NCBI GenBank assembly: GCA_035764725.1
Contig: DASTYT010000051.1
Location: forward strand, 4,603-68,602
DNA length: 64,000 nt
DNA from: Candidatus Methylomirabilota bacterium
Lineage (GTDB): Bacteria > Methylomirabilota > Methylomirabilia > Rokubacteriales > CSP1-6
Direction: 5' to 3'
In this document: one piece after another, positions 11,650-29,721 of the stretch
Layout of the letters: each line of letters starts with the position of its first letter
How positions within the stretch are numbered: position 1 is the stretch's first letter
Position numbers and translations under genes: made by a program
The notes under the pieces: model-generated
What the model was told of the DNA's origin: nothing
Databases searched by the model: none
Seen by the model: the letters and a program-made list of their open reading frames with translations, nothing else

Positions 11650-12915
11650 ATGGGGAAGCTGACGCGACGGACATTCCTCAGGGCGAGCGGCGCGGGCGTG
11701 GTCGGCACGGTGATGGCCGCCGGGCTCGCCGGCTGCGCGTCCACGATGGGCGAGACACAGCCCACGGGCCGCCGCCGGGTCGTGGTGATCGGCGGGGGCT
11801 GGGGCGGCGCCACCGCCGCCAAGTACGTCCGGATGGGTGATCCCCGCATCGACGTGGTGCTCCTCGAGCCGAATCGTCAGTTCATCTCCTGCCCGTTCAG
11901 CAATCTCGTCCTGGCCGGCCTGCGCAACGTCGAGAGCCTGAGCTTCGGCTACGACGGGCTGCGCCGGCGCGGCGTGACGGTGCGCCACGAGGCGGCGCTG
12001 GCCATCGAGCCCGACACCAAGCGCGTGCGACTGGCGAGCGGCTATCTCGCCTATGACCGTCTCATCGTGTCACCCGGCGTCGACTTTCTCTGGGACCAGG
12101 TGGACGGGCTGCCCGCTGCGCGCGACACCGTCCTCCATGCCTGGAAGGCCGGTCCGCAGACGGTGGAGCTGGCGCGGCAGATCCAGTCCATGCCGGACAA
12201 CGGAGTGTTCATTTTGACGGTTCCGCCGGTGGCCTATCGCTGCCCGCCCGGCCCCTACGAGCGCATCTCGATGGTGGCGTGGTACCTCAAGGCGAACAAG
12301 CCGCGCGCCAAGGTCCTGGTGCTCGACGCCAATCCCAACATCGTCTCGAAGACCGCGCTGTTCCGCGAGGCGTGGAAGGCGTACCCCAACATCGAGTACC
12401 GCGCCACCAATCGGGTGATCGCCGTCGATCCGGGCGCGAGGGAAGTGCGGACGGAGTTCGACCGGATCAAGTACGACGTGCTGAACCTGATCCCGCCGCA
12501 GCGCGCCGGGCAGATCGTGGTGGACGCGAACCTCGTGGGCGCCGACAAGCGCTGGTGCGAGGTCAGCCACCTGACGTACGAGTCGGTGAAGGCGCCCGGC
12601 GTGCACGTGGTGGGGGACGCGACCACCGGCCTCCCGGTGCCGAAGTCGGGGAACGTGGCCAACAACATGGGGAAGATTGCCGCGATCGCCGCGGTGTCTC
12701 TCCTCAACGACAAGCCGGCGCCCTCGGTGGCACCGGGCAATACCTGCTACAGCTGGGTGAGCGATCGCGAGGCCATCGCGGTGGTCAATGCGTACAAGAT
12801 CGAGAACGGCAAGGTGGTTCAGATCGAGCAGCGGCTCACCCCGGCGCAGTCCCCCGCGGTGGCGGCGCGCGCGGTCGGCTGGACCCAAAGTATCTGGCAG
12901 GACGTGGTCGGCTAG
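11650..12915 (+). CDS. fccB: Flavocytochrome c sulfide dehydrogenase flavoprotein subunit (FccB/SoxF-like), Tat-exported
   Basis: 421 aa. Twin-arginine signal RRTFLRASGAGVVGTVMAAGLAGCAS. FAD motif RVVVIGGGWGGATAAKYV. A diheme cytochrome c follows. Could alternatively be another periplasmic FAD disulfide oxidoreductase. Confidence 0.7.
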   Translation: MGKLTRRTFLRASGAGVVGTVMAAGLAGCASTMGETQPTGRRRVVVIGGGWGGATAAKYVRMGDPRIDVVLLEPNRQFISCPFSNLVLAGLRNVESLSFGYDGLRRRGVTVRHEAALAIEPDTKRVRLASGYLAYDRLIVSPGVDFLWDQVDGLPAARDTVLHAWKAGPQTVELARQIQSMPDNGVFILTVPPVAYRCPPGPYERISMVAWYLKANKPRAKVLVLDANPNIVSKTALFREAWKAYPNIEYRATNRVIAVDPGAREVRTEFDRIKYDVLNLIPPQRAGQIVVDANLVGADKRWCEVSHLTYESVKAPGVHVVGDATTGLPVPKSGNVANNMGKIAAIAAVSLLNDKPAPSVAPGNTCYSWVSDREAIAVVNAYKIENGKVVQIEQRLTPAQSPAVAARAVGWTQSIWQDVVG

Positions 12916-12932
12916 GCGCCAGGGAGACCAGC

Positions 12933-13547
12933 ATGCCCAGAGTCCACATCGCCGTCGTCGGTGCCGCGCTGCTCGCCGCCGCGAGCGCGCCGGCGCCCGC
13001 TTCCGCGCAGGCCTCCGCGCCCATGCTCTACGAGACCACGACCGCGCGTGTGGTCACGTGCGCCGCCTGCCACGGCGTCAACGGCAACAGCCGGTCCGAC
13101 GCCATGCCCATCATCGCCGGGATGGACGCCGGCTACTTCAAGAAGCAGGTGCAGGCGTACGCCGCCAACGCCCGGCCGTCCCCCGAGATGGGGCCCTACG
13201 CGAAGCAGATCCTCGACATCGGCCTCGATGCGGTGGCGGGCCACTTCGCCGCGCAGCGCATGGAGCCGACGCCGCTCAAGGCCGACGCGGCGGCGGTGGC
13301 GCGGGGGCGCACCGCGTCGGCGCCCTGCGTGGCGTGCCACGGCGCCGACGGCAAGGGCGATTCCGCCAAGGGCACTCCGAGCCTCGCCGGCCAGCCGCCG
13401 GGCTATCTGCGGGATCAGATCGGTCTCTTCCGGCAGGATGCGCGCAACCCGGGCGACACGACGCTCGCCGCGATCAAGGCTCTGATGAAGACGCTGCCGG
13501 AGGCGCAGGACGCCGACCTGGCCGCGTACTACTCGAGCCTGCGCTAG
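12933..13547 (+). CDS. fccA: Diheme c-type cytochrome (FccA/c4-like), secreted
   Basis: 204 aa. Signal peptide. Two CxxCH motifs (CAACHG, CVACHG). Confidence 0.75.
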   Translation: MPRVHIAVVGAALLAAASAPAPASAQASAPMLYETTTARVVTCAACHGVNGNSRSDAMPIIAGMDAGYFKKQVQAYAANARPSPEMGPYAKQILDIGLDAVAGHFAAQRMEPTPLKADAAAVARGRTASAPCVACHGADGKGDSAKGTPSLAGQPPGYLRDQIGLFRQDARNPGDTTLAAIKALMKTLPEAQDADLAAYYSSLR

Positions 13548-13603
13548 CGAACCCCGCGTTCCCGGGTGATTCGTCGCCCGTTTGTCCTGGAGGGGCTCTC
13601 ACC

Positions 13604-14413
13604 GTGCCCGAATGGCTGCTGCTGCTCATCGCCGGCCTGGTGATCGGCGCCTACGGCACCATCATCGGGGCCGGGGGCGGCTTCATCCTGGTGCCGCTGC
13701 TCTTGATCTTCTATCCCAACGAGAGCTCCGAGTCGATCGCCAGCGTGTCGCTGGCGGTTGTGTTCTTCAACGCGCTCTCGGGCACGATCGCCTACGCCCG
13801 GCTCAAGCGCGTCGACTACGGCTCCGGCGTCCTGCTCGCCCTCGCCACCGTGCCCGGCGCCATTCTCGGCGCCCTCACGACCCCGCTGATCCCGCGCCGC
13901 CCCTTCGACCTCATCGTGGGCTGTCTCCTCGTCGCCCTGTCGATCTTTCTGGTCCTCCGCCCGCTCGCCGAGGCGCGTGAGTGGACCGGGCGCTTCCGCA
14001 TGAGCCGCCGCATGATCGATCCCGATGGCACCGTGCAGTCGTGGAGCTATAACCCCGTGCTCGGTGTGGCGGTGAGCGTGGTGATCGGCTTCGTGTCGAG
14101 TCTGCTCGGCATCGGGGGCGGCTTCATCCACGTCCCCGTGATGGTGAATTTCCTCAACTTTCCCGTGCACGTCGCCTCCGCGACCTCCCACTTCACCTTG
14201 ACGGTGATGACGGCGGTGGGCTCGGTGGTGCACCTCCTCACCGGCACCCTCGTGGGCGCGGCGCCGCGGGTCGTGCCGCTCTCCCTCGGCGTGGTGGTCG
14301 GCGCGCAGGTCGGGGCCCGCCTCGCCCAGCGCATGCGCGGCGTCTGGATCATCCGCGCCCTCGTCCTCGCGCTGGCTTTCGTGGGGGCCCGCCTCATCTT
14401 CAAAGCCCTGTAG
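13604..14413 (+). CDS. TauE/SafE family sulfite/sulfonate exporter (DUF81)
   Basis: 269 aa, GTG start behind a GGAGGGG RBS. Duplicated 4-TM halves each carrying a GxGGGF motif (GAGGGFILVPLL and GIGGGFIHVPVM). Confidence 0.75.
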   Translation: MPEWLLLLIAGLVIGAYGTIIGAGGGFILVPLLLIFYPNESSESIASVSLAVVFFNALSGTIAYARLKRVDYGSGVLLALATVPGAILGALTTPLIPRRPFDLIVGCLLVALSIFLVLRPLAEAREWTGRFRMSRRMIDPDGTVQSWSYNPVLGVAVSVVIGFVSSLLGIGGGFIHVPVMVNFLNFPVHVASATSHFTLTVMTAVGSVVHLLTGTLVGAAPRVVPLSLGVVVGAQVGARLAQRMRGVWIIRALVLALAFVGARLIFKAL

Positions 14414-14446
14414 CCGCGCGGCGAACGGAGTAATATCAGTCTCCGC

Positions 14447-15994
14447 ATGCGCTACGGATTCGTCCTCGACCAGCGGAAGTGCATCGGGTGTCACGCCTGC
14501 ACGGTGGCTTGCAAGGAAGAGAACGGCGTCCCCCTCGGCGTCAACCGCACCTGGGTGAAGTACATCGAGAAGGGCACCTTTCCCGACACGCGGCGGTACT
14601 TCGCCGTGCTCCGCTGCAACCATTGTGACGATGCTCCGTGCGTGACGATCTGTCCCACCGTCGCCCTCTATCGCCGGCCCGACGGCATCGTAGACTTCGA
14701 CGGCGCGCGTTGCATCGGCTGCAAATCGTGCATGCAGGCTTGCCCCTACGATGCCCTCTACATCGATCCCGAGACCCAGACCGCGGCCAAGTGTCACTAC
14801 TGCGCCCATCGCGTCGAGGTGGGGCTCGAGCCCGCGTGCGCGATCGTGTGCCCGGTACAGGCCATCGTGGCGGGCGACCTCGACGATCCCGGCACTCCCA
14901 TTGCCCGCCTGGTCGCCTCGCAGCAGGTGCAGGTGCGGAAGCCGGAGCAGGGGACGCAGCCGAAGGTGTTCTACCTCGGCGCCGAGATGTCCGCGCTGGC
15001 GCCCGAGATGCAGCGGCGAGACGGGCAGTACGTGTTCTCCCAGGCTTCCACGATCCCGACGCCCGGCCAGCGCAACCACGCGGTGGCGCCCGCGCCGCCC
15101 GTGCCGGACGACCCCCTCGATCTCCGGGCACTCGCCCGCACCGTCTACGACGTCGCGCACCCCGCGCGGCCCTGGGGCGGCAAGGTGTCCTCCTATCTTT
15201 GGACCAAGTCGGTGTCCGCGGGCGCGATGCTCGTGGCGGGGGTGAGCATGCTGTCCGGACTGGCGTCGGGGAACGTCCTCGCCGGCCGCATCGCGCCCGT
15301 GATCGCGCTCGTGTTCCTCGTGCTGACGACCGCGCTCCTCATTGCGGATCTCAAGCGGCCGGAGCGCTTTCTCTATCTCCTCTTCAAGCCCAACTGGCGC
15401 TCGTGGCTCGTCTGGGGCGGCTGGATCCTGATCGCCTACGGCGGCGGCGTCACGCTCTGGCTGCTCGCCGCGCTCGCCGGGCGCCCGCAGGCCCTGGTGT
15501 GGCTGGCGGTGCCCGTCACCCTGCTCGCCGCCTCGACCGCCGGCTACAGCGCGTTCCTGTTCGGCCAGGCCGAGGGCCGCGATTTCTGGCAGAGCCCACT
15601 GACCCTGCCGCATCTCCTCGTTGCCGCGCTCGCCGCGGGCAGCGCGAGCCTGCTGCTCCCCGCGCTTGCGCTCGGCGGGGGCCCGGGCGCGCCGTGGGGG
15701 CTGCGCCTGGTCCTGCTCGGCTCGCTCATCGCGCTCGCCGTGGTCCTCGAAGCCGAGATCCTCACCCCCCATCCCACCCTCGACGCCGAGCGCGCCGCGC
15801 GGTTCCTCACCCGCGGGCCCCTCGCCGCCCCGCTCTGGGCCGGCGTGGGGGGGGCGGGGATCGTGCTCCCCGTCGCCCTCCTCTTCACGCCGTGGCACGC
15901 CGCGTGGGGGGTGGCGGCCGTGCTGTCCCTCGCCGGGCTCTGGCTCTACGAGGACCTCTGGATACGCGCGGGCCAATCCGTGCCGCTGAGCTGA
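14447..15994 (+). CDS. Fused 4x[4Fe-4S] ferredoxin subunit + NrfD/PsrC-type integral membrane anchor of a Mo-bisPGD oxidoreductase (SoeB-SoeC-like fusion)
   Basis: 515 aa. N-terminal ~200 aa has four Cys clusters (CIGCHACTVAC; CNHCDDAPCVTICP; CIGCKSCMQACP; CHYCAHRV...CAIVCP). C-terminal ~300 aa has 8+ predicted TM helices of the NrfD type. No signal peptide. Confidence 0.75.
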   Translation: MRYGFVLDQRKCIGCHACTVACKEENGVPLGVNRTWVKYIEKGTFPDTRRYFAVLRCNHCDDAPCVTICPTVALYRRPDGIVDFDGARCIGCKSCMQACPYDALYIDPETQTAAKCHYCAHRVEVGLEPACAIVCPVQAIVAGDLDDPGTPIARLVASQQVQVRKPEQGTQPKVFYLGAEMSALAPEMQRRDGQYVFSQASTIPTPGQRNHAVAPAPPVPDDPLDLRALARTVYDVAHPARPWGGKVSSYLWTKSVSAGAMLVAGVSMLSGLASGNVLAGRIAPVIALVFLVLTTALLIADLKRPERFLYLLFKPNWRSWLVWGGWILIAYGGGVTLWLLAALAGRPQALVWLAVPVTLLAASTAGYSAFLFGQAEGRDFWQSPLTLPHLLVAALAAGSASLLLPALALGGGPGAPWGLRLVLLGSLIALAVVLEAEILTPHPTLDAERAARFLTRGPLAAPLWAGVGGAGIVLPVALLFTPWHAAWGVAAVLSLAGLWLYEDLWIRAGQSVPLS

Positions 15995-16003
15995 GGCCGA
16001 CCC

Positions 16004-18832
16004 ATGACCGACCGCGTGACCGAGCCGCTGCATCCCGTCGCCCGCGATCTCCAAGCTCCCGCGGAGGGGCTGCATCGCTATCCGCCCGCTGCGCTCTGGG
16101 ACAACTGGGAGGAGTTCGACCCGCGCGCGTGGCCGCGGCGGGTGAAGCGGCAGTACTCGCTCATCCCGACGATCTGCTTCAATTGCGAGGCGGCGTGCGG
16201 GCTGCTCGCCTACGTGGACCAGCGCACGCTCAAGATCCAGAAGTTCGAGGGGAACCCCGCGCATCCCGGCAGCCGCGGCCGCAACTGCGCCAAGGGCCCG
16301 GCCACCCTCAACCAGGTGACGGATCCGGAGCGCATCCTCTATCCCCTCCGCCGGGCGGGCGCGCGCGGCGAGGGAACGTGGGAGCGCGTCACCTGGGACG
16401 AGGCTCTCGATGACATCGCGAGCCGCATCCGCAAGGCGCTGGTCGAGAAGCGTCCGACCGAGGTGATGTATCACCTGGGGCGCCCCGGCCACGAGCTCGT
16501 CTATCTGCAGCGGATCTTCCACGCGTGGGGTATCGACGGCCACAACAGCCACACCAATGTCTGCTCGGCGTCGGCGCGCGCAGGCTATGCCTTCTGGCAC
16601 GGGCTCGACCGGCCCTCGCCGGATCACGCCAAGGCGCGCGTGATCCTGCTGCTCTCCTCCCATCTCGAGGCCGGCCACTACTTCAATCCCCATGCGCAGC
16701 GCATCACCGAGGGCAAGCAGGCGGGCGCCAAGGTGTGCGTCGTGGACACGCGCCTGAGCAACACCGCCTCGATGGCGGACTGGTGGCTCTCCCCGTGGCC
16801 GGGCACCGAGGCCGCTCTGCTCCTCGCCATGTGCCACGTGCTCCTGCGCGAGGGCACGTGGGACCGCGACTTCGTCCGCCGCTGGGTGAACTGGGGGGAG
16901 TACCTGCGCGAGGAGCGTCCGGGCACGCCGGTGACGTTCGAGGCCTTCGAGACCGCACTGGTCGATCTCTACGCCGACTACACGCCGGAGTTTGCGGAGC
17001 GCGAGTCGGGCGTGCCCGCCGCGCGCATCGAGGAGATCGCGCGGGAGATCGGGCGCGCCGGCGGCGCGCTGTCCACGCACGTGTGGCGCAATGCCGCGGC
17101 GGGCAACCTGTGGGGCTGGGAGGTCGCGCGCGCCCTCGAGCTCCTGGTCGTCCTCGCTGGCGCGGTGGCCACGCCCGGCGGCACCGCGCCGTCGGGCTTC
17201 CACAAGGCGGTGCCCGCGCCGCCCATGATGCCGCCGCCCGGGAAGGTGTGGAGCGAGCTGCTCATGCCGCGCGAGTACCCGCTCGCCTTCTTCGAGATGA
17301 GCTTCCTCCTGCCCCATCTGCTCCGAGAGAATCGGGGCAAGCTCGCGATGTACTTCACGCGCGTGTACAACCCGGTGTGGACCAACCCCGATGGGATGTC
17401 GTGGATCGAGATGCTCACCGACGAGGCCAAGATCGAGCGCCACGCCTGCCTCACGCCGATCTGGAGCGAGACCGCGCACTTCGCGGACTACGTCCTCCCG
17501 ATGGGCCACGCCTCCGAGCGCCACGATCTCATGAGTCAGGAGACGCACGCCGCGCGCTGGATCGGCTTCCGCCAGCCCGTGCTGCGGGTGGCGCTCGAGA
17601 AGCAGGGGAAGCGCTTCGACTGGACGTGGCAGGCGCACGAGGCGGCCGGGCTCGGCCAGGTGTGGGAGGAGGACGAGTTCTGGATCGAGCTGTCCTGGCG
17701 GATCGATCCCGACGGCGCCCTCGGGATCCGCAAGTACTTCGAGTCCCCGTACCGCCCGGGGCAGAAGCTCACCATCGAGGAGTTCTACCGCTGGATCTTC
17801 GAGCACAGCGTGCCCGGCCTGCCCGCCGCCGCGCAGAAGGAAGGCCTGACCCCGCTCGCCTACATGCGGAAGTACGGCGCCTTCCTCGTGGAGGGCGGCG
17901 TGTACGCGTCGCACGAGAAGCCGCTGTCCGCCGCGGAGCGCGAGGGGGCGACGGTGGATCCCGTCACCAGCGTGGTGGCCAAGGGTGGCGCGGCCGTCGG
18001 CGTCGAGGTGGACGGGCGCGCCGCCGCGGGCTTTCCCACGCCCTCGCGCAAGCTCGAGTTCTACTCGAAGACGCTGAAAGACTGGAAGTGGCCCGAGCAC
18101 GCGGTGCCGACGTACGCGCGGAGCCATGTCCACTGGTCGCAGATCGACCGCGCTAAGGGCGAGATGCTGCTGCTGCCGACCTTCCGGCTGCCCACGCTCG
18201 TCCACTCGCGCTCGGGCAATGCGAAGTGGCTGTACGAGATCTCCCACAGTAACCCCCTGTGGCTGCACCCGGAGGACGCCGCGCGCCTCGGGGTGAAGAC
18301 GGGCGAGCTCCTCCGGATCGAGACGGAGATCGGCCACTTCGTGGACCGCGTGTGGGTGACGGAGTCCATCCGGCCCGGCGTGATCGCGTGCTCGCATCAC
18401 ATCGGGCGGTGGCGGCTCCACGAGTCGACCGGCGGCGAGCGCTGGTCGACCGCGCTGGTGGATCTCACGCGTGAGGCGCCGGGGCATTGGCGCATGCGCC
18501 ACGTCCACGGCATCCGTCCGTTCGCCAGCGCGGATCCCGACTCCGAGCGCGTGTGGTGGGAGGACGCGGGCGTGCACCAGAATTTGACGTTCCCCGTGCA
18601 TCCCGACCCGGTGAGCGGCCAGCACTGCTGGCATCAGAAGGTCCGCGCGGTGCGTCCGGGGCCGGACGACCGCTACGGCGACGTCTTCGTGGACACCAAC
18701 CGCTCGCAGGAGGTCTTCCGCCACTGGCTCGCGATGACGCGGCCGGCGCCGGGCCCCGGCGGCCTCCGCCGCCCGCTCTGGCTGCCCCGCGCCTTCAAGC
18801 CCGACGCGTCCGCGTATAAGCTGGAGGGGTGA
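16004..18832 (+). CDS. Molybdopterin (Mo-bisPGD) oxidoreductase catalytic subunit lacking a Tat signal, candidate sulfite dehydrogenase SoeA-like
   Basis: 942 aa. N-terminal FeS0 Cys motif CFNCEAACGL...C. No RRxFLK motif. Follows the FeS/NrfD fusion with a 10-nt gap. The Soe assignment is inferred from architecture and neighbours. Confidence 0.7.
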   Translation: MTDRVTEPLHPVARDLQAPAEGLHRYPPAALWDNWEEFDPRAWPRRVKRQYSLIPTICFNCEAACGLLAYVDQRTLKIQKFEGNPAHPGSRGRNCAKGPATLNQVTDPERILYPLRRAGARGEGTWERVTWDEALDDIASRIRKALVEKRPTEVMYHLGRPGHELVYLQRIFHAWGIDGHNSHTNVCSASARAGYAFWHGLDRPSPDHAKARVILLLSSHLEAGHYFNPHAQRITEGKQAGAKVCVVDTRLSNTASMADWWLSPWPGTEAALLLAMCHVLLREGTWDRDFVRRWVNWGEYLREERPGTPVTFEAFETALVDLYADYTPEFAERESGVPAARIEEIAREIGRAGGALSTHVWRNAAAGNLWGWEVARALELLVVLAGAVATPGGTAPSGFHKAVPAPPMMPPPGKVWSELLMPREYPLAFFEMSFLLPHLLRENRGKLAMYFTRVYNPVWTNPDGMSWIEMLTDEAKIERHACLTPIWSETAHFADYVLPMGHASERHDLMSQETHAARWIGFRQPVLRVALEKQGKRFDWTWQAHEAAGLGQVWEEDEFWIELSWRIDPDGALGIRKYFESPYRPGQKLTIEEFYRWIFEHSVPGLPAAAQKEGLTPLAYMRKYGAFLVEGGVYASHEKPLSAAEREGATVDPVTSVVAKGGAAVGVEVDGRAAAGFPTPSRKLEFYSKTLKDWKWPEHAVPTYARSHVHWSQIDRAKGEMLLLPTFRLPTLVHSRSGNAKWLYEISHSNPLWLHPEDAARLGVKTGELLRIETEIGHFVDRVWVTESIRPGVIACSHHIGRWRLHESTGGERWSTALVDLTREAPGHWRMRHVHGIRPFASADPDSERVWWEDAGVHQNLTFPVHPDPVSGQHCWHQKVRAVRPGPDDRYGDVFVDTNRSQEVFRHWLAMTRPAPGPGGLRRPLWLPRAFKPDASAYKLEG

Positions 18833-19422
18833 TGGCTCGCCTCCGCGTCCTCCGCCGCCGTCTCGCGTGGCGGTTCCTGCTCCTGGTCGCGCTTGTCGCG
18901 GCCGTCCTCGTCGGCGCGCCCGGCGCCGGGGACTCCGCCGAGCCGTCGGCCGAGGTGTTGTCCGCCCTCGAGTTGGCGCCGCTCCCGCGCGCGGCCGCGC
19001 CCGCCTTCACCCTCGCCGATCTCGACGGCCGCGCGCAGTCGCTCGCGAGCCTGCGAGGTCAGACGGTGTTGATCTACTTCTGGGCGACCTGGTGCCCCTA
19101 CTGCCAGAAGGAGCTCCCCACCACCGTGCAGGAGCTGGCGCGCCGCTATCGCGACCGGCGGCTCGTCGTGCTCGCGGTCAACCTGGAGGAAGGGCGGGAC
19201 AAGGTGCGTGCGTGGGTGAAGAAGCACGGCATCTCCGTCCCGGTGCTCCTGGACGGCAACGGTGAGGTCAGCGGCGACTACCGCGTGACCGCCACGCCCA
19301 CCGCGGTGCTCGTGGACCGCGATGGCCGCACCGTCGCCCGCGCGGTGGGCACCCGTTCCTGGACGTCAGACCGTGCCCGCCCCCTGTGGGACGCCCTGCT
19401 CCCGCCCGCGCAGACTCGCTAG
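18832..19422 (+). CDS. TlpA/ResA-like periplasmic thiol:disulfide oxidoreductase (thioredoxin fold)
   Basis: ~196 aa. N-terminal membrane anchor and WCPYC active site. Overlaps the Mo-subunit stop (GTGATGG; a GTG at 18829 is an alternative start). Confidence 0.75.
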   Translation: MARLRVLRRRLAWRFLLLVALVAAVLVGAPGAGDSAEPSAEVLSALELAPLPRAAAPAFTLADLDGRAQSLASLRGQTVLIYFWATWCPYCQKELPTTVQELARRYRDRRLVVLAVNLEEGRDKVRAWVKKHGISVPVLLDGNGEVSGDYRVTATPTAVLVDRDGRTVARAVGTRSWTSDRARPLWDALLPPAQTR

Positions 19423-19439: not shown

Positions 19440-20273
19440 CTAGTCGATGCCGAAGTCGAACATGCGGCCGCTCGCAGTCGCACCGCTCAGGACGACGAAG
19501 CCATACTCGCCGGGCGCGAGCGGGCTTGCGGGCGTGATGCGGTAAAAGCCATTGGCTTCGCGCTCGCTCTTCACCGCGATCCGGTCCTCATTGCGCACGC
19601 CGTGGCGGATCGTGCCGCCGCCCGGGAAGAAGCCGCCGCTGCCCATCTTGAGGTTCCGGTCATTCTTGGTGTCGCCGGGCTTCAGCTTGACGAGCAGGGC
19701 CTCCGTCGGCGCGTAGTAGCTGTAGAACTGCGGCTGCTTCTCCGTGATGCGGGCCTCGGCCTTGCGCCCGCCCAGCACCACCTCGCTCTTCTGCGAGAAG
19801 AAGGCCACGTTGGTCTCGATCTCGATCACCTGGGGCTGCAGCTCCACGTATTTCGAGCCGTTGAGATAGTAGATCGAGTCGCGGGGCAGATTGGGCGCGG
19901 CCCCGCCGGCGCTGGAGCGCGCGGCGGATGACACCGCCGCCGGCGGCGCGCTCTGCGGGGTGCCCGCCGGCGAAGTCGGCGCGGCCGGTGCCGGGGCCGC
20001 CGCGGTGGCGCCCCCCGCCTTGGGCGCGCTCACCATGGCCTCGATGATCTTGTCGGAAACGCCCGCCTTCTTCAGATTCAGGAGCGCGTTGGTGCTCGTG
20101 TCGAAGTTGGCCGGGCCGGAGCGCACGCGCGCGAGCACGACCGCTTCGCTGAGCCCGCCCTTCACCATGGAGATGATCGACTCGTTGGTGAGCGTCTCCT
20201 GGGCGGCGGCGGTCAGGGGCATCACCGCGATCACGAGCAGGACGGCGACGACGAGGCGAGCGAGACTCCTCAT
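19440..20273 (-). CDS. Secreted hypothetical protein (signal peptide, Ala/Pro-rich linker)
   Basis: 277 aa from MRSLARLVVAVLLVIAVMPLTAAAQE. AGGAGGG RBS 5 nt upstream. No recognisable catalytic motif. Convergent with tlpA, 17-nt gap. Confidence 0.55.
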   Translation of the reverse strand: MRSLARLVVAVLLVIAVMPLTAAAQETLTNESIISMVKGGLSEAVVLARVRSGPANFDTSTNALLNLKKAGVSDKIIEAMVSAPKAGGATAAAPAPAAPTSPAGTPQSAPPAAVSSAARSSAGGAAPNLPRDSIYYLNGSKYVELQPQVIEIETNVAFFSQKSEVVLGGRKAEARITEKQPQFYSYYAPTEALLVKLKPGDTKNDRNLKMGSGGFFPGGGTIRHGVRNEDRIAVKSEREANGFYRITPASPLAPGEYGFVVLSGATASGRMFDFGID

Positions 20274-20316
20274 GGGATTCCCTCCTGCGGCATCAAAGCA
20301 TTCGCCCCCGCGACAA

Positions 20317-20354
20317 GTCAAGGCGCAGCCCCGGGGCAGGCACGTCGCCTTGAC
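20317..20354. promoter_or_regulatory. Nested palindrome GTCAAGGCG-N20-CGCCTTGAC with central GCCCCGGGGC: candidate operator in the divergent promoter region
   Basis: Perfect 9-bp inverted repeats with a perfect 10-bp palindrome in the spacer. The downstream arm overlaps a TTGACC -35-like hexamer. Lies in the 200-bp gap between the minus-strand secreted-protein gene and aconitase. Confidence 0.35.
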
Positions 20355-20472: not shown

Positions 20473-22719
20473 ATGGCGGCAGACCAGATCAAGCGACTCT
20501 ACGAATCCATGCCCGCCAAGCTGGACCGGGCTCGCACGCGCTTCGGACGCGCGCTCACCCTCGCCGAGAAGATCCTCGTCGCGCACGCCGACGATTTCGA
20601 CAAGCAGGAGTGGAGCCGCGGCAAGGCCCAGCTCCGCCTGCGTGTGGACCGCGTGTCGCTACAGGACGCCACGGGCCAGATGGCGCTGCTCCAGTTCATG
20701 CAGGCGGGGAAGAAGCAGGTGGCGGTGCCGTCCACCGTGCACTGCGACCACCTCATCCGCGCGCAGACCGGGGCGCGCGAGGACATGGAGCGGGCGATCT
20801 CGGAGAACCGCGAGGTGTACGAGTTTCTCCATTCCGCCTCCAGGAAGTACGGGATTGGGTTCTGGAAGCCGGGCGCGGGGATCATCCACCAGGTGGTTCT
20901 GGAGAACTACGCGTTCCCCGGCGGGCTCATGATCGGCGCCGACTCGCACACGCCCAACGCGGGCGGCCTCGGCATGGCCGCGATCGGCGTGGGCGGGGCG
21001 GACTGCGGTGAGGCGATGGCGGGGCTCGCGTGGGAGGTGCTCGATCCCAAGCTCGTGGGCGTGCGGCTCACCGGGAAGTTCTCGGGCTGGACCTCCGCGA
21101 AGGACGTCATCACCTACCTCTGCGGGCTCCTCACCGTGAAGGGCGGCACCAACAAGATCATCGAGTACTTCGGTCCCGGCGCGGAGTCGATCAGCGCCAC
21201 TGGCAAGGGCACCATCTGCAACATGGGCGCGGAGCTCGGCGCCACCACCTCGCTCTTCCACTTCGACGACCGCATGGCCGCCTATCTCCGCGCGACGGAC
21301 CGGGCCGACCAGGCCGCGCTCGCGGAGGCGCACCGGGCGCATCTCGTCGCCGATCCCGAGGTGCTCGCCGACCCGAAGAAGTACTACGACGAGGTCGTCG
21401 AGGTGAACCTCTCCGAGCTCGAGCCTCACATCGTCGGCCCGCACTCGCCCGACCGCGCGCGGCCCGTCAGCAAGCTCGCCGCCGAGGTGAAGAAGGAGGG
21501 CTGGCCCGCCCAGATCAAGGCCGCCCTCATCGGCTCCTGCACCAACTCCTCCTACGAGGACATGCGACGCGCCGCCCACATCGCCACCCAGGCTCTCAAG
21601 GCCGGGCTCAAGGCGAAGACCCCCTTCCTCGTGACGCCGGGGTCGGAGCGCATCTACCAGACCATCAAGCGCGACGGCATCATGGATACCTTCCAGCAGA
21701 TCGGGGGCACCGTGCTCGCCAACGCGTGCGGCCCCTGCATCGGCCAGTGGAAGCGGTCGGACGTGAGCGCGACCGAGACCAACACCATCGTGTCGTCGTT
21801 CAACCGCAACTTCCCCGGGCGCAACGACGGCAGCGCGAGCACGCTGTCGTTCCTCACCAGCCCGGAGATCGTGACCGCGCTGGCCTTCGCGGGGTCGCTC
21901 GAGTTCGATCCCGTCAACGGCACCATCCCCGGTCCCGACGGGCGGGCGTTCCGCTTCACCGCGCCCGAGGGCGAGGAGCTGCCCGCCCGCGGCTTCGCCA
22001 AAGGCGAGGAGGGCTTCGAGGCGCCGGCGGCGAGCGGCGATGCGGTGCAGGTCGTGATCCCACCGGGGAGCGAGCGGCTCCAGCTCCTCCAGCCCTTCCC
22101 GCGGTGGGACGGCAAGGACTTCACCGAGCTCCCGATCCTCGTCAAGACCAAGGGCAAGACGACCACCGACCACATCTCGCCCGCCGGCGCGTGGCTCCGC
22201 TTCCGCGGGCACCTCGACAAGATCAGCGACAACATGTTCCTGGGCGCGGTCAATGCCTTCACCGGCGAAGCGGGGAAGGGCGTGAACCCCCTCACCGGCG
22301 AGGCGGGCAAGACCTTCACCCAGAACGCGCGCGATCTCAAGGCGCGCGGGATCTCCTGGATGGTGATCGGAGACGAGAACTACGGCGAGGGGTCGAGCCG
22401 CGAGCACGCGGCGATGTCGCCCCGCTACCTCGGCGCCAAGGTCGTCATCGTCCGGAGCTTCGCGCGCATCCACGAGACCAATCTCAAGAAGCAGGGCATC
22501 CTGCCCCTGACCTTCAGCGACCCCAAGGACTACGACCTCTTCGACCGGGCCGATCGCGTGAGCGTGCGCGGGCTCGCCGCGCTGATGCCGGGCCAGCCGG
22601 TGGAGGTGGTCATTCACAAGGCGGGTGGCGAGACCGTCACCATCAAGTGCAACCACACCTTGACCGACGAGCAGATCGGCTGGTTCAAGGCAGGCTCGGC
22701 GCTCAACGCGCTCACCTAA
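20473..22719 (+). CDS. Aconitate hydratase (mitochondrial-type, ~750-aa class)
   Basis: 748 aa. Fe-S ligand motifs [11 protein letters not shown] and [10 protein letters not shown]. The length is mAcn-like rather than AcnA/AcnB (~870-890 aa). GGAGG RBS. Confidence 0.85.
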
Positions 22720-22735
22720 CTTCGAGGAGACCTCA

Positions 22736-24927
<2,192 letters not shown>

Positions 24928-24947
24928 GAGCGCCCCCCGCCTTGTCC

Positions 24948-25790
24948 ATGCGTCCCATCCACGTCTCGGCGATTACCGACGCGGTGAAGAAGCTCTGCAT
25001 GGAGGCGAACTACGACCTGGAGCCGGACGTGCTCCGCGCCTTCGACCGCGCGCTGGGGGTCGAGCGCTCACCCGCCGGCCGCCAGGTGCTGCAGATCCTC
25101 AAGGACAACGCCGAGCTCGCCCGGACGAAGAAGATCCCGTACTGCCAGGACACCGGCTTCGTGGTCTGCTTCGCGGAGGTCGGCCAGGACGTGCACGTGG
25201 AGGGCGGTCTCCTCGCCGACGCGATCAACGCGGGGATCCGCGCTGGCTATACCGAGGGCTATCTGCGCGCCTCGATCGTGCGCTCGCCCTTCGACCGCGT
25301 GAACACCGCCGACAACACGCCCGGGGTCATCCACACCGAGCTCACGGCGGGCGCGAATCTCCGCATCCAGATCATGGCCAAGGGCGGCGGCTGCGAGAAC
25401 CGGTCGAAGTACAAGATGCTCACGCCGGCCGAGGGCATCGAGGGCGCCAAGGCCTGGGTGCTCGAGTGCATCAAGACGGCGGGGCCCGACGCGTGCCCGC
25501 CCCTCATCGCCGGCGTCGGCATCGGGGGCACATTCGAGAAGGCGGCAATCCTGTCCAAGAAGGCGCTGTTCCGCGAGCTGGGCTCGCCGAATCCCGATCC
25601 CGCCGCGGATGCCCTTGAGAAGGAGCTGCTCGAGCGGGCCAATCGCCTCGGCATCGGCCCCCAGGGCTACGGCGGCGACACCACCGCGCTCGGCATCCAC
25701 ATCCTGACCTATCCCTGCCACATCACGAGCCTTCCGGTGGCCGTCACTATCGAATGCCACGCCCACCGCCACAAGGAAGCCGTCCTGTGA
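24948..25790 (+). CDS. Class I fumarate hydratase / L(+)-tartrate dehydratase, alpha (N-terminal, Fe-S) subunit
   Basis: ~280 aa. KKIPYCQDTGF and further Cys ligands. Two-subunit FumA-type. A TTG at 24942 is an alternative start. Confidence 0.8.
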   Translation: MRPIHVSAITDAVKKLCMEANYDLEPDVLRAFDRALGVERSPAGRQVLQILKDNAELARTKKIPYCQDTGFVVCFAEVGQDVHVEGGLLADAINAGIRAGYTEGYLRASIVRSPFDRVNTADNTPGVIHTELTAGANLRIQIMAKGGGCENRSKYKMLTPAEGIEGAKAWVLECIKTAGPDACPPLIAGVGIGGTFEKAAILSKKALFRELGSPNPDPAADALEKELLERANRLGIGPQGYGGDTTALGIHILTYPCHITSLPVAVTIECHAHRHKEAVL

Positions 25791-26359
25791 TCAAGACGGC
25801 GGCGGACGGGATCAAGGACGTGACGCCGCCGCTGAGCGACGCCGACGTCGAATCGCTCACCGCAGGGGACCGCGTCCGCATCACCGGCACCCTGTACACG
25901 GCGCGGGACGCCGCCCACGGCCGCCTCTCGCCGCTGGTGGAGGCGGGCCGGCCGCTCCCCATCGACGTGAAGGGCCAGATCATCTACTACACGGGCCCCT
26001 CGCCGGCGCGGCCGGGGGATGTGGTGGGCTCCGTGGGGCCCACCACGGGGGGCCGCATGGACACGTTCACTCCCGGTCTCCTCGCCCTCGGGCTCAAGGG
26101 CACGATCGGGAAGGGGGCGCGCTCGCAGCCGGTGAAGGACGCCCTCGCCCGGCACAAGGGCGTGTACTTCGGCGCCATCGGGGGCGCCGGCGCGGTGCTC
26201 TCGCGCTTCGTGAAGAAGCTCGAGGTGGTGGCCTACGAGGACCTCGGCACGGAGGCCATCCGTTGCCTCGAGGTGGAAGGCTTCCCCGCCATCGTGATCA
26301 ACGACTGCCACGGCGGCGATCTCTACCAGGACGGCGTCAAGCAGTACGCACGCGACTAG
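25787..26359 (+). CDS. Class I fumarate hydratase, beta (C-terminal) subunit
   Basis: ~190 aa. Swivel-domain-like GTLYTARDAAHGRL...GAIGGAGAVLS. The GTG overlaps the alpha stop (GTGA). An in-frame ATG at 25754 is an alternative start. Confidence 0.7.
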   Translation: MIKTAADGIKDVTPPLSDADVESLTAGDRVRITGTLYTARDAAHGRLSPLVEAGRPLPIDVKGQIIYYTGPSPARPGDVVGSVGPTTGGRMDTFTPGLLALGLKGTIGKGARSQPVKDALARHKGVYFGAIGGAGAVLSRFVKKLEVVAYEDLGTEAIRCLEVEGFPAIVINDCHGGDLYQDGVKQYARD

Positions 26360-26375
26360 AGAAAGGGCTCGACGT

Positions 26376-28972: not shown

Positions 28973-29721
28973 TGGCCGCGACCACGGTGACGATGAAGGT
29001 CTGGCGGGGCGACGCCAAGGGCGGCGCCTTCCGCGAGTACCAGGTGCCCTCACAGGAGGGCATGGTGGTGCTGGACGTGATCCACACGCTGCAGGCCACC
29101 CAGGCGGGGGATCTCGCCTGCCGCTGGAACTGCAAGGCGGGCAAGTGCGGCTCGTGCAGCGCGGAGATCAACGGCAAGCCGCGCCTCATGTGCATGACCC
29201 GCATGGACACGTTCCAGCCCGGCGAGACCATCACCGTCGCGCCCATCAAGACGTTCCCGCTCTACCGTGACCTCGCCACCGACGTCTCGTTCAACTACGA
29301 GCGGGCCAAGGAGATCCCCGCGTTCAAGCCGGGCCCCAAGGAAGCCGACGGCACCCGGCGCATGTGGCAGGAAGACGTGGAGCGCAGCCAGGAGTTCCGC
29401 AAGTGCATCGAGTGCTTCCTGTGTCAGAACGTCTGCCACGTGATCCGCGACCATCCCGAGAACACGCCGCACTTCGCGGGCCCGCGCTTCCTCATGCGCA
29501 TCGCCGAGCTGGAGATGCACCCGCTGGACACCAACGACCGGCTGGAGCTGGCCCAGTCGAAGGCCGGGCTCGGGTTCTGTAACATCACCAAGTGCTGCAC
29601 CGAGGTCTGCCCCGAGCACATCCACATCACGGACAACGCGCTCATCCCTCTCAAGGAGCGCGTGATCAGCGAGAAGTACGATCCGCTGTTCTGGCTCGCC
29701 CGGAAGCTCAAGGGCAAGTAA
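28972..29721 (+). CDS. sdhB: Succinate dehydrogenase/fumarate reductase iron-sulfur subunit
   Basis: 250 aa. [2Fe-2S] motif [13 protein letters not shown] and [4Fe-4S]/[3Fe-4S] motifs [11 protein letters not shown] and CTEVCP. Confidence 0.9.

What the first reader, a model, noticed from the sequence alone, without database searches (positions are those of the whole stretch)
11650..19422. Candidate sulfur-oxidation island: FccBA sulfide dehydrogenase + TauE exporter + cytoplasm-facing SoeABC-like molybdoenzyme + TlpA
Seen in sequence: a Tat-exported FAD protein with the FCSD-type GGGWGGATAAKY motif is followed by a diheme (2x CxxCH) cytochrome. Next come a TauE/SafE exporter, a 4x[4Fe-4S]+NrfD protein and a 942-aa Mo-bisPGD catalytic subunit; both FeS and Mo subunits lack any Tat/Sec signal. 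A WCPYC thioredoxin follows.

Established knowledge: SoeABC of Allochromatium vinosum is the only well-characterised Mo-bisPGD/FeS/NrfD complex whose subunits all lack signal peptides and face the cytoplasm. It oxidises sulfite to sulfate. TauE/SafE proteins export sulfite and sulfoacetate. FccAB oxidises sulfide.

Inference: the block encodes a coupled sulfide and sulfite oxidation module in a lineage not classically viewed as a sulfur oxidiser. Polysulfide, thiosulfate or tetrathionate reductase catalytic subunits, the alternatives, normally carry Tat signals.
Basis: partly seen in the sequence, partly recalled or inferred. Interest (0 to 1): 0.7.

Follow-up and report, generated by a model that had tools for sequence, protein, structure and literature searches.

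The report
Sulfide and sulfite oxidation gene cluster
A soil bacterium of the Rokubacteria group carries a tight six-gene cluster for oxidising sulfide outside the cell membrane and, most likely, sulfite inside it; the inner enzyme is a known type first described in green sulfur bacteria, so this is a useful annotation, not a new kind of system.

Summary
Window 11650-19422 holds six co-directional, tightly packed genes:
- a Tat-exported FCSD flavoprotein
- a diheme cytochrome c
- a TauE permease
- a single fused 4x[4Fe-4S]+NrfD protein
- a 942-aa Mo-bisPGD subunit
- a TlpA-like thioredoxin

The FeS-NrfD and Mo proteins have no signal peptide. In-frame stops 11 and 3 codons upstream rule out a hidden one.

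The organism is Methylomirabilota ('Rokubacteria'). The Mo subunit belongs to a conserved, Tat-less clade that was paired with a fused FeS-NrfD gene wherever enough flank was available. The clade includes the two-gene PSRLC3 complex of Chlorobium (61-62% identity). The literature treats PSRLC3 as the green-sulfur-bacterial counterpart of SoeABC sulfite dehydrogenase. The Mo subunit lies outside the Psr/Phs-like proteins sampled.

Across phyla the pair sits beside persulfide dioxygenase, rhodanese, TusA, DsrE and TauE genes. All of these point to cytoplasmic sulfite.

The SoeABC-like reading is therefore largely right, with four limits:
- It is the known PSRLC3 variant.
- It is not a compositional 'island'.
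- The step from sulfur to sulfite is missing from the window.
- Direct clustering with A. vinosum SoeA could not be tested.

Verdict: new member of a known kind, modest interest.

The parts
11650..12915 (+). fccB: flavocytochrome c sulfide dehydrogenase flavoprotein, Tat-exported and probably lipid-anchored
   Evidence: Pfam FCSD_central scores 125.7 bits and FCSD-flav_bind 43.9 bits. PDB 3VRD_B matches at 3.7e-93 and 1FCD_A at 3.7e-92 over nearly the full length. Cys42 (covalent FAD), Cys161 and Cys337 are aligned and conserved. The N-terminus reads TRRTFLR...LAGC.
12933..13547 (+). fccA-like diheme cytochrome c with a Sec signal
   Evidence: Two CxxCH motifs. Pfam Cytochrom_C has two stretches. 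The FCSD heme subunit 3VRD_A matches at 2.5e-15 over residues 41-202, and cytochrome c4 at 2.9e-16.
13604..14413 (+). TauE/SafE-family anion permease
   Evidence: Pfam PF01925 at 5.5e-44, covering the full profile. GTG start with GGAGG 9 nt upstream. A TauE gene also lies next to the BC-A pair in Chlorobium, in other Rokubacteria and in the P0348 genome.
14447..15994 (+). Fused SoeB/SoeC-like subunit: an N-terminal 4x[4Fe-4S] ferredoxin domain joined to an 8-helix NrfD quinone-interacting membrane domain. No signal peptide; the N-terminus is predicted to be cytoplasmic.
   Evidence: Fer4_11 and NrfD lie in one ORF. There are four Cys motifs (16 Cys), and Lys/Arg residues concentrate in the loops on the same side as the FeS domain. 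An in-frame stop lies 11 codons upstream. The fusion is conserved in T. roseum, R. jostii, Natrinema and Chlorobium at 47-64% identity.
16004..18832 (+). SoeA/PSRLC3-type Mo-bisPGD catalytic subunit, Tat-less and facing the cytoplasm
   Evidence: Three Mo-enzyme Pfam domains. The FS0 motif is C58-x2-C61-x3-C65...C95. The predicted Mo-ligand Cys187 sits in the conserved HTNVCS motif. An in-frame stop lies 3 codons upstream. It is 61-62% identical to the Chlorobium PSRLC3 subunit. It falls in the Tat-less clade with bootstrap 88. The AF2 model has pLDDT 87.9, and the nearest solved folds are ArrA and PsrA at 21-22% identity.
18829..19422 (+). TlpA/ResA-like membrane-anchored periplasmic thiol:disulfide oxidoreductase (WCPYC), translationally coupled to the Mo gene
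   Evidence: Pfam AhpC-TSA and Redoxin. NCBIfam ResA and TlpA score below their cut-offs. One N-terminal hydrophobic helix at residues 12-30. A homologous redoxin follows SoxYZ in the sister Rokubacteria clusters.

Best explanation
The cluster encodes two sulfur-oxidising enzymes on opposite sides of the cytoplasmic membrane of a Methylomirabilota ('Rokubacteria') bacterium.

Outside the membrane:
- The Tat-exported, probably lipid-anchored flavoprotein FccB and its diheme cytochrome FccA oxidise sulfide to zero-valent sulfur or polysulfide.
- The electrons pass to the c-type cytochrome pool.

Inside the membrane:
- A two-gene complex of the PSRLC3/Soe type oxidises sulfite to sulfate at a Cys-ligated Mo-bisPGD site.
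- Electrons pass through FS0 and the four [4Fe-4S] clusters of the fused subunit to quinone in its NrfD domain.
- This NrfD domain sits in the membrane in the opposite orientation to PsrC.

The TauE permease moves the anion across the membrane, either exporting sulfate or excess sulfite, or taking sulfite up. The TlpA-like thioredoxin keeps periplasmic thiols reduced, such as those of SoxYZ-type carriers or cytochrome maturation.

Shown here: gene content, signal peptides and topology, family placement, and conserved neighbours.
Inferred: substrate, direction of electron flow, TauE cargo, and any metabolic coupling between the two enzymes.
For: FCSD identity:
- Full-length matches to solved FCSD flavoproteins, with all three catalytic Cys conserved.
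- An adjacent diheme cytochrome that matches FCSD heme subunits.

Cytoplasmic orientation of the Mo complex:
- No Tat or Sec signal, and none possible given the upstream stops.
- The positive-inside bias places the FeS domain on the N-side.

Family placement:
- At least 587 relatives in species genomes. The best 80 are 59-86% identical to the window protein. In the census of the 88 loci held (these 80, the window and seven earlier loci), 78 had a BC-type ORF within the flank held. For the loci read in full, that ORF is one fused gene next to the Mo gene.
- Three Chlorobium genomes are included at 61-62% identity. In Chlorobium sp. N1 the locus reads fused BC, A, TauE-like, DsrE-like, rhodanese, TusA.
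- This matches the literature description of PSRLC3: 'two genes' (PMC5473276), an 'alternative sulfite-oxidizing system' (PMC6338057), and 'inferred to be sulfite oxidase' (PMC9324843).
- It also matches Dahl et al. 2013, as quoted in PMC8232776, that SoeABC genes are universal in purple and green sulfur bacteria.
- In the NJ tree the window protein sits inside the Tat-less clade with bootstrap 88. Psr/Phs-like proteins lie outside.

Context pointing to cytoplasmic sulfite:
- R. jostii RHA1: DsrE, TusA, BC, A, with divergently transcribed MBL-fold hydrolases (the persulfide dioxygenase fold) and an ArsR-family regulator.
- T. roseum: a CsoR/CstR-type regulator immediately upstream.
- P0348 genome: BC, A, NarJ-like, DsrE, TusA, MBL-fold (PDO-like), rhodanese, TauE.
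- Sister Rokubacteria: PDO-rhodanese, YeeE-type transporter, FccB, FccA, TauE, BC, A, SoxY, SoxZ, redoxin.

Established knowledge: persulfide dioxygenase and reverse Dsr both release sulfite in the cytoplasm. A. vinosum SoeABC has genetic evidence and A. aeolicus SoeABC has biochemical evidence for sulfite:quinone oxidoreductase activity (PMC8076601).
Against: - No PSRLC3-type complex has been assayed. Its sulfite-oxidase role is an inference in every paper cited.
- The 64-kb window contains no persulfide dioxygenase, Dsr, sHdr, rhodanese, TusA, DsrE, YeeE or SoxYZ gene. The source of cytoplasmic sulfite in this organism is therefore not shown.
- The nearest relatives outside the clade are the Tat-bearing ~1110-aa proteins of Sulfurovum and Sulfurimonas, at 41-48% identity. 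By gene order they appear to be the 'PsrA1' linked in the literature to sulfur reduction (PMC10045233).
- The A. aeolicus family member also reduces sulfur, polysulfide and tetrathionate (PMC4378227).
- IMG, NCBI and UniRef give the family only generic names. None calls it SoeA.
- Clustering with A. vinosum SoeA itself was not tested.
- A weak terminator-like hairpin at 13563-13580 lies between fccA and tauE. This could mean two transcription units. The count of such sites is not above chance.
Confidence: 0.6

Rival explanations
1. The Mo complex runs in the reductive direction. It would be a cytoplasm-facing quinol-dependent reductase of sulfane sulfur, polysulfide, thiosulfate or tetrathionate (Sre/Psr-like). 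Its role would be to dispose of or recycle intracellular persulfide rather than to oxidise sulfite.
For: - The closest relatives outside the clade are Tat-type proteins of Sulfurovum and Sulfurimonas. By gene order they look like the Campylobacterota 'PsrA1' associated with sulfur respiration (PMC10045233).
- The A. aeolicus family member was first purified as a sulfur, polysulfide and tetrathionate reductase (PMC4378227, PMC10100899).
- The frequent neighbours DsrE, TusA and rhodanese handle sulfane sulfur, not sulfite.
- The best NCBIfam and PDB sequence hits are PhsA, PsrA and ArrA.
Against: - The family is widespread in aerobic soil and marine heterotrophs, including Rhodococcus, Thermomicrobium, Flavobacteriia and haloarchaea. 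It sits next to persulfide dioxygenase-like genes, whose product is sulfite.
- In green sulfur bacteria it accompanies the sulfite-producing oxidative pathway. That co-occurrence with Dsr is from literature and own knowledge.
- Reducing sulfur to sulfide beside a sulfide dehydrogenase would be a futile cycle.
- The recurrent TauE partner fits an oxyanion product.
Confidence: 0.18
2. The complex oxidises carrier-bound or sulfane sulfur delivered by TusA, DsrE or rhodanese, or thiosulfate, rather than free sulfite. It would be a third cytoplasmic route from S(0) to S(IV)/S(VI), alongside reverse Dsr and sHdr.
For: - DsrE and TusA genes lie immediately beside BC-A in R. jostii RHA1, the P0348 genome, a Ktedonobacteraceae genome and Chlorobium.
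- Many carriers of the pair show no dsr or shdr genes in the flanks examined.
- The window itself has no sulfite-generating enzyme nearby.
Against: - There is no biochemical precedent among Mo-bisPGD enzymes of this family.
- PDO-like genes, which already convert persulfide to sulfite, are the commonest neighbour (about 30 of 88 loci by a permissive HMM).
- Many loci carry the pair alone, without sulfur-relay genes.
Confidence: 0.1
3. The substrate is a different oxyanion such as arsenite, selenite or tellurite. This would parallel the uncharacterised 'Soe-like cluster 2' of Thioalkalivibrio, which is induced by arsenite.
For: - Soe-like complexes without Tat signals are induced by arsenite in Thioalkalivibrio (PMC6620896).
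- ArsR/SmtB-family regulators flank the pair in R. jostii and in an actinobacterial MAG.
Against: - No ars, aio or arx genes lie next to the pair in the window or in any locus examined.
- ArsR-family members include persulfide sensors.
- The consistent neighbours are sulfur genes.
Confidence: 0.05

Closest known systems
PSRLC3 (polysulfide-reductase-like complex 3) of green sulfur bacteria (Frigaard & Bryant 2008; Gregersen et al. 2011)
   Same: - Two genes, fused FeS-NrfD then the Mo subunit, neither with a signal peptide.
- 61-62% identity for the Mo subunit and 47% for the fused subunit.
- A TauE-like gene adjacent.
- Same clade in the tree.
   Different: - The Chlorobium locus continues with DsrE-like, rhodanese and TusA genes and has no FccAB or TlpA beside it.
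- The window has FccBA upstream and TlpA downstream, and no sulfur-relay genes.
- The host here is a non-phototrophic soil lineage.
SoeABC sulfite:quinone oxidoreductase of Allochromatium vinosum (Dahl et al. 2013) and Aquifex aeolicus (Boughanemi et al. 2020)
   Same: - A Mo-bisPGD subunit of about 950 aa with FS0 and a Cys ligand, a 4x[4Fe-4S] module and an NrfD module.
- All parts lack signal peptides.
- The complex is predicted to face the cytoplasm with an inverted NrfD orientation (PMC8076601).
   Different: - Canonical soeABC is described as three subunits (PMC8076601). The gene order A-B-C is from my own knowledge. Here B and C are one polypeptide encoded upstream of A.
- Sequence relationship to A. 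vinosum SoeA was not measured.
- IMG does not name this family SoeA.
Periplasmic 'PsrA1B1CDE' of Sulfurovum and Sulfurimonas (Campylobacterota)
   Same: - Nearest relatives outside the clade, at 41-48% identity.
- They share the N-terminal (R)YPPxxxW extension and the motifs NSHTN[VI]CS and HPDP[VI]SGxHCWHQ.
   Different: - Tat signal, about 1110 aa, separate B and C genes, and a TorD-like chaperone plus an extra FeS protein.
- Linked in the literature to sulfur reduction (PMC10045233). The match of this locus type to 'PsrA1B1CDE' rests on gene order and is my inference.
Flavocytochrome c sulfide dehydrogenase FccAB of Allochromatium vinosum and Thermochromatium tepidum (PDB 1FCD, 3VRD)
   Same: - Flavoprotein alignable end to end, with the FAD-binding and disulfide Cys conserved.
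- A diheme cytochrome partner encoded next to it.
   Different: - Gene order is fccB then fccA.
- The flavoprotein has a lipobox after its Tat motif, suggesting membrane anchoring.
- The cytochrome is only distantly similar (E about 1e-15).
Staphylococcus aureus cst operon (tauE-cstR-cstA-cstB-sqr) and related heterotrophic sulfide-detoxification clusters
   Same: Same logic across the family's loci: a sulfide oxidase, persulfide dioxygenase/rhodanese, TusA/DsrE sulfurtransferases, a TauE permease and a CsoR- or ArsR-type regulator. The cst operon layout is from own knowledge.
   Different: - cst has no molybdoenzyme and stops at thiosulfate or sulfite, which is exported.
- Here a quinone-linked Mo complex is added.
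- The window itself lacks the dioxygenase and the regulator.

Membership tests
FCSD (flavocytochrome c sulfide dehydrogenase, FccAB) | Flavoprotein with FCSD-specific central and flavin-binding domains | tested here: met
   PF21706 scores 125.7 bits (cut-off 27) and PF09242 43.9 bits (cut-off 26). 3VRD_B, 1FCD_A and 5N1T_A match at 1e-88 to 1e-93, against 1e-11 to 1e-12 for the best SQR structures.
FCSD (flavocytochrome c sulfide dehydrogenase, FccAB) | Cys for the covalent 8-alpha-S-cysteinyl FAD link, and the redox-active Cys pair | tested here: met
   Query Cys residues align with Cys42, Cys161 and Cys337 of 3VRD_B. The roles of these residues come from the 1FCD structure (own knowledge).
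FCSD (flavocytochrome c sulfide dehydrogenase, FccAB) | Periplasmic location and an adjacent c-type cytochrome partner | tested here: met
   Tat motif TRRTFLR. The next gene has a Sec signal and 2x CxxCH, and matches FCSD heme subunits at 2.5e-15.
FCSD (flavocytochrome c sulfide dehydrogenase, FccAB) | Sulfide:cytochrome c oxidoreductase activity | not testable with these tools
   Needs an enzyme assay.
PSRLC3 of green sulfur bacteria | Two genes only: a PsrA-like Mo subunit and a fused PsrB-PsrC-like subunit | tested here: met
   Window 14447-15994 (fused) and 16004-18832. Chlorobium sp. N1 has the same layout. '2 genes encoding PSRLC3' (PMC5473276).
PSRLC3 of green sulfur bacteria | No signal peptide on either subunit (cytoplasmic orientation) | tested here: met
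   Upstream in-frame stops and N-terminal sequences. Positive-inside bias. No dedicated predictor (TatP/SignalP) was available.
PSRLC3 of green sulfur bacteria | Catalytic subunit clusters with the Chlorobium protein to the exclusion of other Mo-bisPGD enzymes | tested here: met
   61-62% identity to three Chlorobium loci. NJ clade bootstrap 88. That the Chlorobium two-gene Tat-less complex is PSRLC3 rests on the literature description, not on gene numbers checked here.
SoeABC (A. vinosum type, KEGG K21307-K21309) | Mo-bisPGD subunit with an FS0 [4Fe-4S] motif and a Cys Mo ligand, a 4-cluster FeS module and an NrfD anchor, all without signal peptides | tested here: met
   Features as listed in PMC8076601 and PMC10100899.
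SoeABC (A. vinosum type, KEGG K21307-K21309) | Three separate subunits SoeA, SoeB and SoeC | tested here: not met
   B and C are fused in one 515-aa ORF placed upstream of A. In the census of 88 loci, 78 had a BC-type ORF within the flank held. Every locus read in full shows one fused gene.
SoeABC (A. vinosum type, KEGG K21307-K21309) | Phylogenetic clustering with experimentally characterised SoeA (A. vinosum D3RNN8, A. aeolicus) | not testable with these tools
   No reference SoeA sequence could be retrieved. It is absent from PLSDB hits. The genome scan kept only the best 80 loci, all at 59% identity or above. The link is indirect, through PSRLC3 and the literature.
SoeABC (A. vinosum type, KEGG K21307-K21309) | Recognised as soeA by current annotation resources | tested here: not met
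   IMG gives only the generic name 'anaerobic selenocysteine-containing dehydrogenase'. NCBI and UniRef give 'molybdopterin-dependent oxidoreductase', 'formate dehydrogenase' or 'hypothetical', including for the Chlorobium members. No NCBIfam model reaches its cut-off.
Psr/Phs/Ttr/Arr periplasmic reductases | Tat signal on the catalytic subunit | tested here: not met
Psr/Phs/Ttr/Arr periplasmic reductases | Score above the family model cut-off, or a position inside these clades | tested here: not met
   PhsA scores 198 against a cut-off of 694, TtrA 88 against 1750, and ArrA 117 against 1600. Identity is 26% to PhsA and 29-36% to the Tat-type Psr-like proteins sampled. The protein lies outside those proteins in the tree. 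No TtrA, ArrA or SrdA sequence was in the tree.
TauE/SafE anion permease | Full-length match to PF01925 | tested here: met
   151 bits against a cut-off of 32.6, profile positions 1-237 of 237. The cargo is not testable here.
TlpA/ResA thiol:disulfide oxidoreductase | Thioredoxin fold with a CxxC motif and an N-terminal membrane anchor; equivalog-level match | tested here: inconclusive
   WCPYC and Redoxin/AhpC-TSA domains are present, with one N-terminal helix. ResA (102.6 against 170) and TlpA (72.6 against 230) are below their cut-offs. Placement is therefore at superfamily level only.

The most novel reading that the evidence does not exclude
The PSRLC3-type two-gene complex may not be a free-sulfite dehydrogenase at all. 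It could be a quinone-linked enzyme acting on sulfane or carrier-bound sulfur handed over by TusA, DsrE or rhodanese, or on thiosulfate. That would make it a third, oxygen-independent cytoplasmic route of sulfur oxidation beside reverse Dsr and sHdr. It would be present, unannotated, in many soil and marine phyla including Methylomirabilota, Acidobacteriota, Chloroflexota, Actinomycetota, Bacteroidota, Planctomycetota and haloarchaea.
Probability: 0.1. Interest if true: 0.75.

Novelty: new member of a known kind. Interest (0 to 1): 0.3.

Why it matters
- **Annotation gap.** If the assignment holds, Rokubacteria and many other abundant soil and marine phyla carry a cytoplasmic, energy-conserving sulfite:quinone oxidoreductase. 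No current annotation resource names it (IMG, NCBI PGAP, UniRef, NCBIfam). Gene-centric sulfur-cycle surveys that rely on the soeABC KEGG orthologs would probably miss this capacity.
- **Testability.** The role of PSRLC3 has stood as an inference since 2008. This analysis shows that the same complex occurs in cultured organisms, including Rhodococcus jostii RHA1, Thermomicrobium roseum, Natrinema, Lutibacter and Flavilitoribacter. From my own knowledge, R. jostii RHA1 is genetically tractable. The question is therefore testable outside the green sulfur bacteria.
- **For the window itself.** The result is mainly a sound functional annotation.

Tried and rejected
Attempts to obtain a reference SoeA sequence all failed:
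- tblastn of the Mo subunit against PLSDB plasmids found only family members and unrelated Mo enzymes.
- The 50%-representative search returned mostly fragments and no named proteins.
- Three homologous-protein searches gave only generic names.
- Foldseek against AFDB50 was not installed.
- The single genome-contig scan kept only the best 80 loci, all at 59% identity or above and with no canonical split soeABC among those read.
- The supplement of the MopB phylogeny paper holds no sequences.
- Dahl 2013, Boughanemi 2020 and Gregersen 2011 are not in the library.

Candidates considered as 'Soe-like' and rejected:
- Azoarcus sp. KH32C plasmid locus. It carries a Tat signal, so it is Psr-like.
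- Sulfurovum mangrovi locus. It looked Tat-less, but it is a frameshifted, N-terminally truncated copy of a Tat-bearing ~1110-aa protein.
- Agrobacterium locus (soluble 708-aa enzyme), Ralstonia locus (no annotated features; only a partial match) and Deinococcus locus (nitrate-reductase-like with a Rieske protein). None is related.
- P0125, first taken as a possible canonical SoeA. It is a degenerate paralogue without the Mo-ligand Cys.

Other rejected leads:
- A 'SoxY' hit in the window was an alternate-frame artefact of my own HMM.
- A viral-contig scan found nothing.
- The promoter scan found no sigma-70-like site, and terminator-like sites are not above chance.

Full report
**1. What is there**

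The window is about 70% G+C throughout. Close homologues of its proteins are labelled Methylomirabilota or 'Candidatus Rokubacteria'. The Mo protein is identical to NCBI HEU5189789.1 from a Methylomirabilota MAG.

Between 11650 and 19422 there are six + strand ORFs, with gaps of 17, 56, 33, 9 and -4 nt:
- an FCSD-type flavoprotein
- a diheme cytochrome c
- a TauE permease
- one fused ferredoxin-NrfD protein
- a 942-aa Mo-bisPGD protein
- a TlpA-like thioredoxin

These are the Tat motif and GGGWGGATAAKY in the flavoprotein, two CxxCH motifs in the cytochrome, four Cys clusters plus NrfD, the Mo domains, and WCPYC. I add that the flavoprotein's Tat motif is followed by a lipobox-like LAGC.

The flanks are housekeeping genes. 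An EF-G-like gene, an alpha/beta-hydrolase-cyclase gene and threonine synthase lie upstream. A run of TCA-cycle genes lies downstream. There is no compositional break, so 'island' is not warranted.

**2. Signal peptides and topology**

The FeS-NrfD ORF begins MRYGFVLDQRKCIGCHAC, that is, directly at the first cluster motif. An in-frame stop lies 11 codons upstream. The Mo ORF has a stop 3 codons upstream, so no longer N-terminus is possible for either.

The only RR in the Mo protein's N-terminus (PRRVKRQYSLIPTICFNCEAAC) runs straight into the FS0 cluster motif, with no hydrophobic region between.

In the fused protein, Lys and Arg concentrate in the loops on the same side as the FeS domain. 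By my segmentation there are about 12 on that side and 0-3 on the other. The positive-inside rule therefore puts the FeS domain, and with it the Mo subunit, in the cytoplasm. The NrfD domain is then inverted relative to PsrC, as proposed for SoeC (PMC8076601). No dedicated predictor was available, so this rests on inspection.

**3. The periplasmic half**

The flavoprotein matches the solved FCSD flavin subunits of Thermochromatium tepidum and Allochromatium vinosum at 1e-92 to 1e-93 over nearly their whole length. The best SQR structures reach only 1e-11 to 1e-12. The residues aligned with Cys42, Cys161 and Cys337 are all Cys.

The next gene matches FCSD heme subunits and cytochrome c4. This is a bona fide FccAB pair by sequence.

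**4. The Mo complex: which family**

No NCBIfam model reaches its cut-off. PhsA scores 198 against 694, TtrA 88 against 1750 and ArrA 117 against 1600. The nearest solved proteins are PsrA and ArrA, with sequence matches confined mostly to the N-terminal third. A good AlphaFold model (pLDDT 87.9, pTM 0.90) superposes best on ArrA and PsrA, at only 21-22% identity.

Full-length relatives exist in cultured organisms. Each is Tat-less and each sits next to a fused FeS-NrfD gene:
- Thermomicrobium roseum, 64%
- Rhodococcus jostii RHA1 plasmid pRHL3, 60%
- several haloarchaea, 50-56%

A scan of one genome per species found at least 587 relatives. The best 80, at 59-86% identity, span Methylomirabilota, Acidobacteriota, Chloroflexota, Bacteroidota, Planctomycetota, Gemmatimonadales and Binatia. 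They also include three Chlorobium genomes at 61-62%.

In Chlorobium sp. N1 the locus reads fused BC (521 aa), A (955 aa), a TauE-like permease, a DsrE-like protein, a rhodanese and TusA. A two-gene, signal-less Psr-like complex in green sulfur bacteria is what the literature calls PSRLC3:
- '2 genes encoding PSRLC3' (PMC5473276)
- 'inferred to be sulfite oxidase' (PMC9324843)

The abstract of Dahl et al. 2013, as quoted in PMC8232776, states that SoeABC genes are universally present in purple and green sulfur bacteria.

I built a neighbour-joining tree of 34 sequences. One mis-extracted short sequence degrades some deep nodes. The tree places the window protein inside the Tat-less clade with Chlorobium, at bootstrap 88. 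The sister group is the Tat-bearing ~1110-aa proteins of Sulfurovum and Sulfurimonas, with weak support. Psr/Phs-like proteins lie outside.

The clade and its Tat-type sister share three signatures:
- an N-terminal (R)YPPxxxW extension
- the active-site motif NSHTN[VI]CS, with the predicted Mo-ligand Cys at position 187 in the window protein
- HPDP[VI]SGxHCWHQ

**5. What I could not do**

I never obtained a sequence of an experimentally characterised SoeA (A. vinosum, R. pomeroyi or A. aeolicus); the routes tried are listed under tried and rejected. The statement 'clusters with SoeA' therefore rests on the PSRLC3 link and the cited literature, not on a tree made here.

Two indirect observations are compatible with one conserved family:
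- The family is very tight, at 55-65% identity between phyla and even between domains.
- A published survey notes that clustering at 50% identity collapses the 'bSreA/SoeA' family to about 16 sequences (PMC10100899).

Against a simple equation with SoeABC, three points stand:
- The gene order is BC then A, and B and C are fused.
- IMG assigns no SoeA name even to the Chlorobium members.
- A survey of NrfD proteins reported SoeC only in Proteobacteria, Clostridia and Aquificae (PMC8076601).

I therefore file it under the PSRLC3 variant, not under canonical SoeABC.

**6. Function from context**

Wherever enough flank is available, the BC-A pair is the conserved core. The neighbours recur:
- MBL-fold persulfide-dioxygenase-like genes, often fused or adjacent to rhodanese
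- TusA and DsrE
- TauE
- FCSD/SQR-like flavoproteins
- a NarJ/TorD-type chaperone and Mrp/NBP35
- CsoR- or ArsR-type regulators

Three other Rokubacteria carry a longer version of this very cluster: PDO-rhodanese, YeeE-type sulfur transporter, FccB, FccA, TauE, BC, A, SoxY, SoxZ, redoxin. In one of them it lies directly after the EF-G-like gene.

The neighbour census used my own iterated HMMs on six-frame ORFs. It is permissive: rhodanese and PDO calls bleed into each other, and 'FccB' may include SQR-like proteins. The counts are indicative only.

The common denominator of these neighbours is production of sulfite in the cytoplasm from persulfide. A cytoplasm-facing sulfite:quinone oxidoreductase is the simplest role for the complex. 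A TauE-family permease as exporter of the anion fits that role.

In the window itself the dioxygenase, YeeE, SoxYZ, rhodanese, TusA and DsrE genes are absent.

**7. Rivals**

- Reductive direction. The A. aeolicus family member also reduces sulfur compounds, according to PMC4378227 and PMC10100899. The Campylobacterota sister group appears, by gene order, to be the 'PsrA1' connected with sulfur respiration in PMC10045233. A reductive or sulfane-sulfur role cannot be excluded.
- Other oxyanions. Arsenite-type substrates are suggested only by analogy with the Thioalkalivibrio 'Soe-like' genes (PMC6620896).
- Carrier-bound sulfur. The tight linkage with TusA and DsrE in several phyla leaves room for a carrier-bound substrate. 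This is the most novel reading not excluded.

**8. Verdict**

- It overstates novelty. This is the PSRLC3 type known from green sulfur bacteria, and it is not an island.
- It overstates coupling, because no sulfite source lies nearby.
- It is a new member of a known kind.

The wider points of interest come from the comparison, not from the window. The family is widespread, conserved, unannotated, and present in cultured organisms, including R. jostii RHA1, where its long-inferred function could be tested.

Noticed in passing
window 11650-11740 (FccB N-terminus): The Tat motif TRRTFLR is followed by a lipobox-like LAGC. The sulfide dehydrogenase flavoprotein may therefore be a Tat-exported lipoprotein, not a soluble periplasmic enzyme.
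   Followed up: no
L010 1031-12432; L017; L018 (other Rokubacteria): Sister genomes carry a longer cluster: PDO-rhodanese, YeeE/Sulf_transp, FccB, FccA, TauE, BC, A, SoxY, SoxZ, redoxin. In L010 it lies directly after the EF-G-like gene. The window has an alpha/beta-hydrolase-cyclase gene and threonine synthase in place of PDO and YeeE, and no SoxYZ.
   Followed up: partly
proteins P0124, P0125, P0128, P0152: Relatives at 35-49% identity lack the Mo-ligand Cys. Three of them (P0124, P0125, P0128) also lack the final Cys of the FS0 motif, and P0124 lacks further FS0 Cys. Three have no Tat motif at the N-terminus; P0152 has one. They look like catalytically dead paralogues, comparable to QrcB or ActB.
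   Followed up: no
L004 7001-10169 (Sulfurovum mangrovi plasmid): The Psr-like catalytic gene is split by a frameshift and lacks the ~55-aa Tat-bearing N-terminus of its 1090-1120-aa homologues. It is probably a pseudogene or an assembly error.
   Followed up: partly
window 19440-20321 (- strand): A 293-aa ORF convergent with the cluster. It has a signal peptide and an Ala/Pro-rich linker, and no Pfam or NCBIfam match at E<=0.001.
   Followed up: no
window 13563-13580: A weak terminator-like hairpin lies in the 56-nt gap between the cytochrome gene and tauE. It could separate fccBA from tauE-BC-A-tlpA. The number of such sites in the region is not above shuffled expectation.
   Followed up: no
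window 20473-31771: A long run of TCA-cycle genes lies immediately downstream: aconitase, isocitrate dehydrogenase, malate dehydrogenase, class I fumarase, a succinate-dehydrogenase-type flavoprotein and succinyl-CoA synthetase.
   Followed up: partly
window 43443-45701 (-) and 59261-62002 (+): Two large subunits of the xanthine-dehydrogenase / CO-dehydrogenase molybdenum hydroxylase family. They are unrelated to the finding.
   Followed up: no
L021 (MAG labelled 'delta proteobacterium'): Two copies of the BC-A pair lie head to head, with a TauE gene beside one of them.
   Followed up: no
L003 1281-4964 (Azoarcus sp. KH32C plasmid): A Tat-type Psr-like B-C-A-TorD cluster sits next to a PhnD-like binding protein, a sensor kinase and a sigma-54 regulator, an arrangement that recalls (from memory) the AioXSR/ArxXSR arsenite-sensing systems, and next to an ACR3 arsenite pump. 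It may be an arsenic-responsive Mo enzyme.
   Followed up: no
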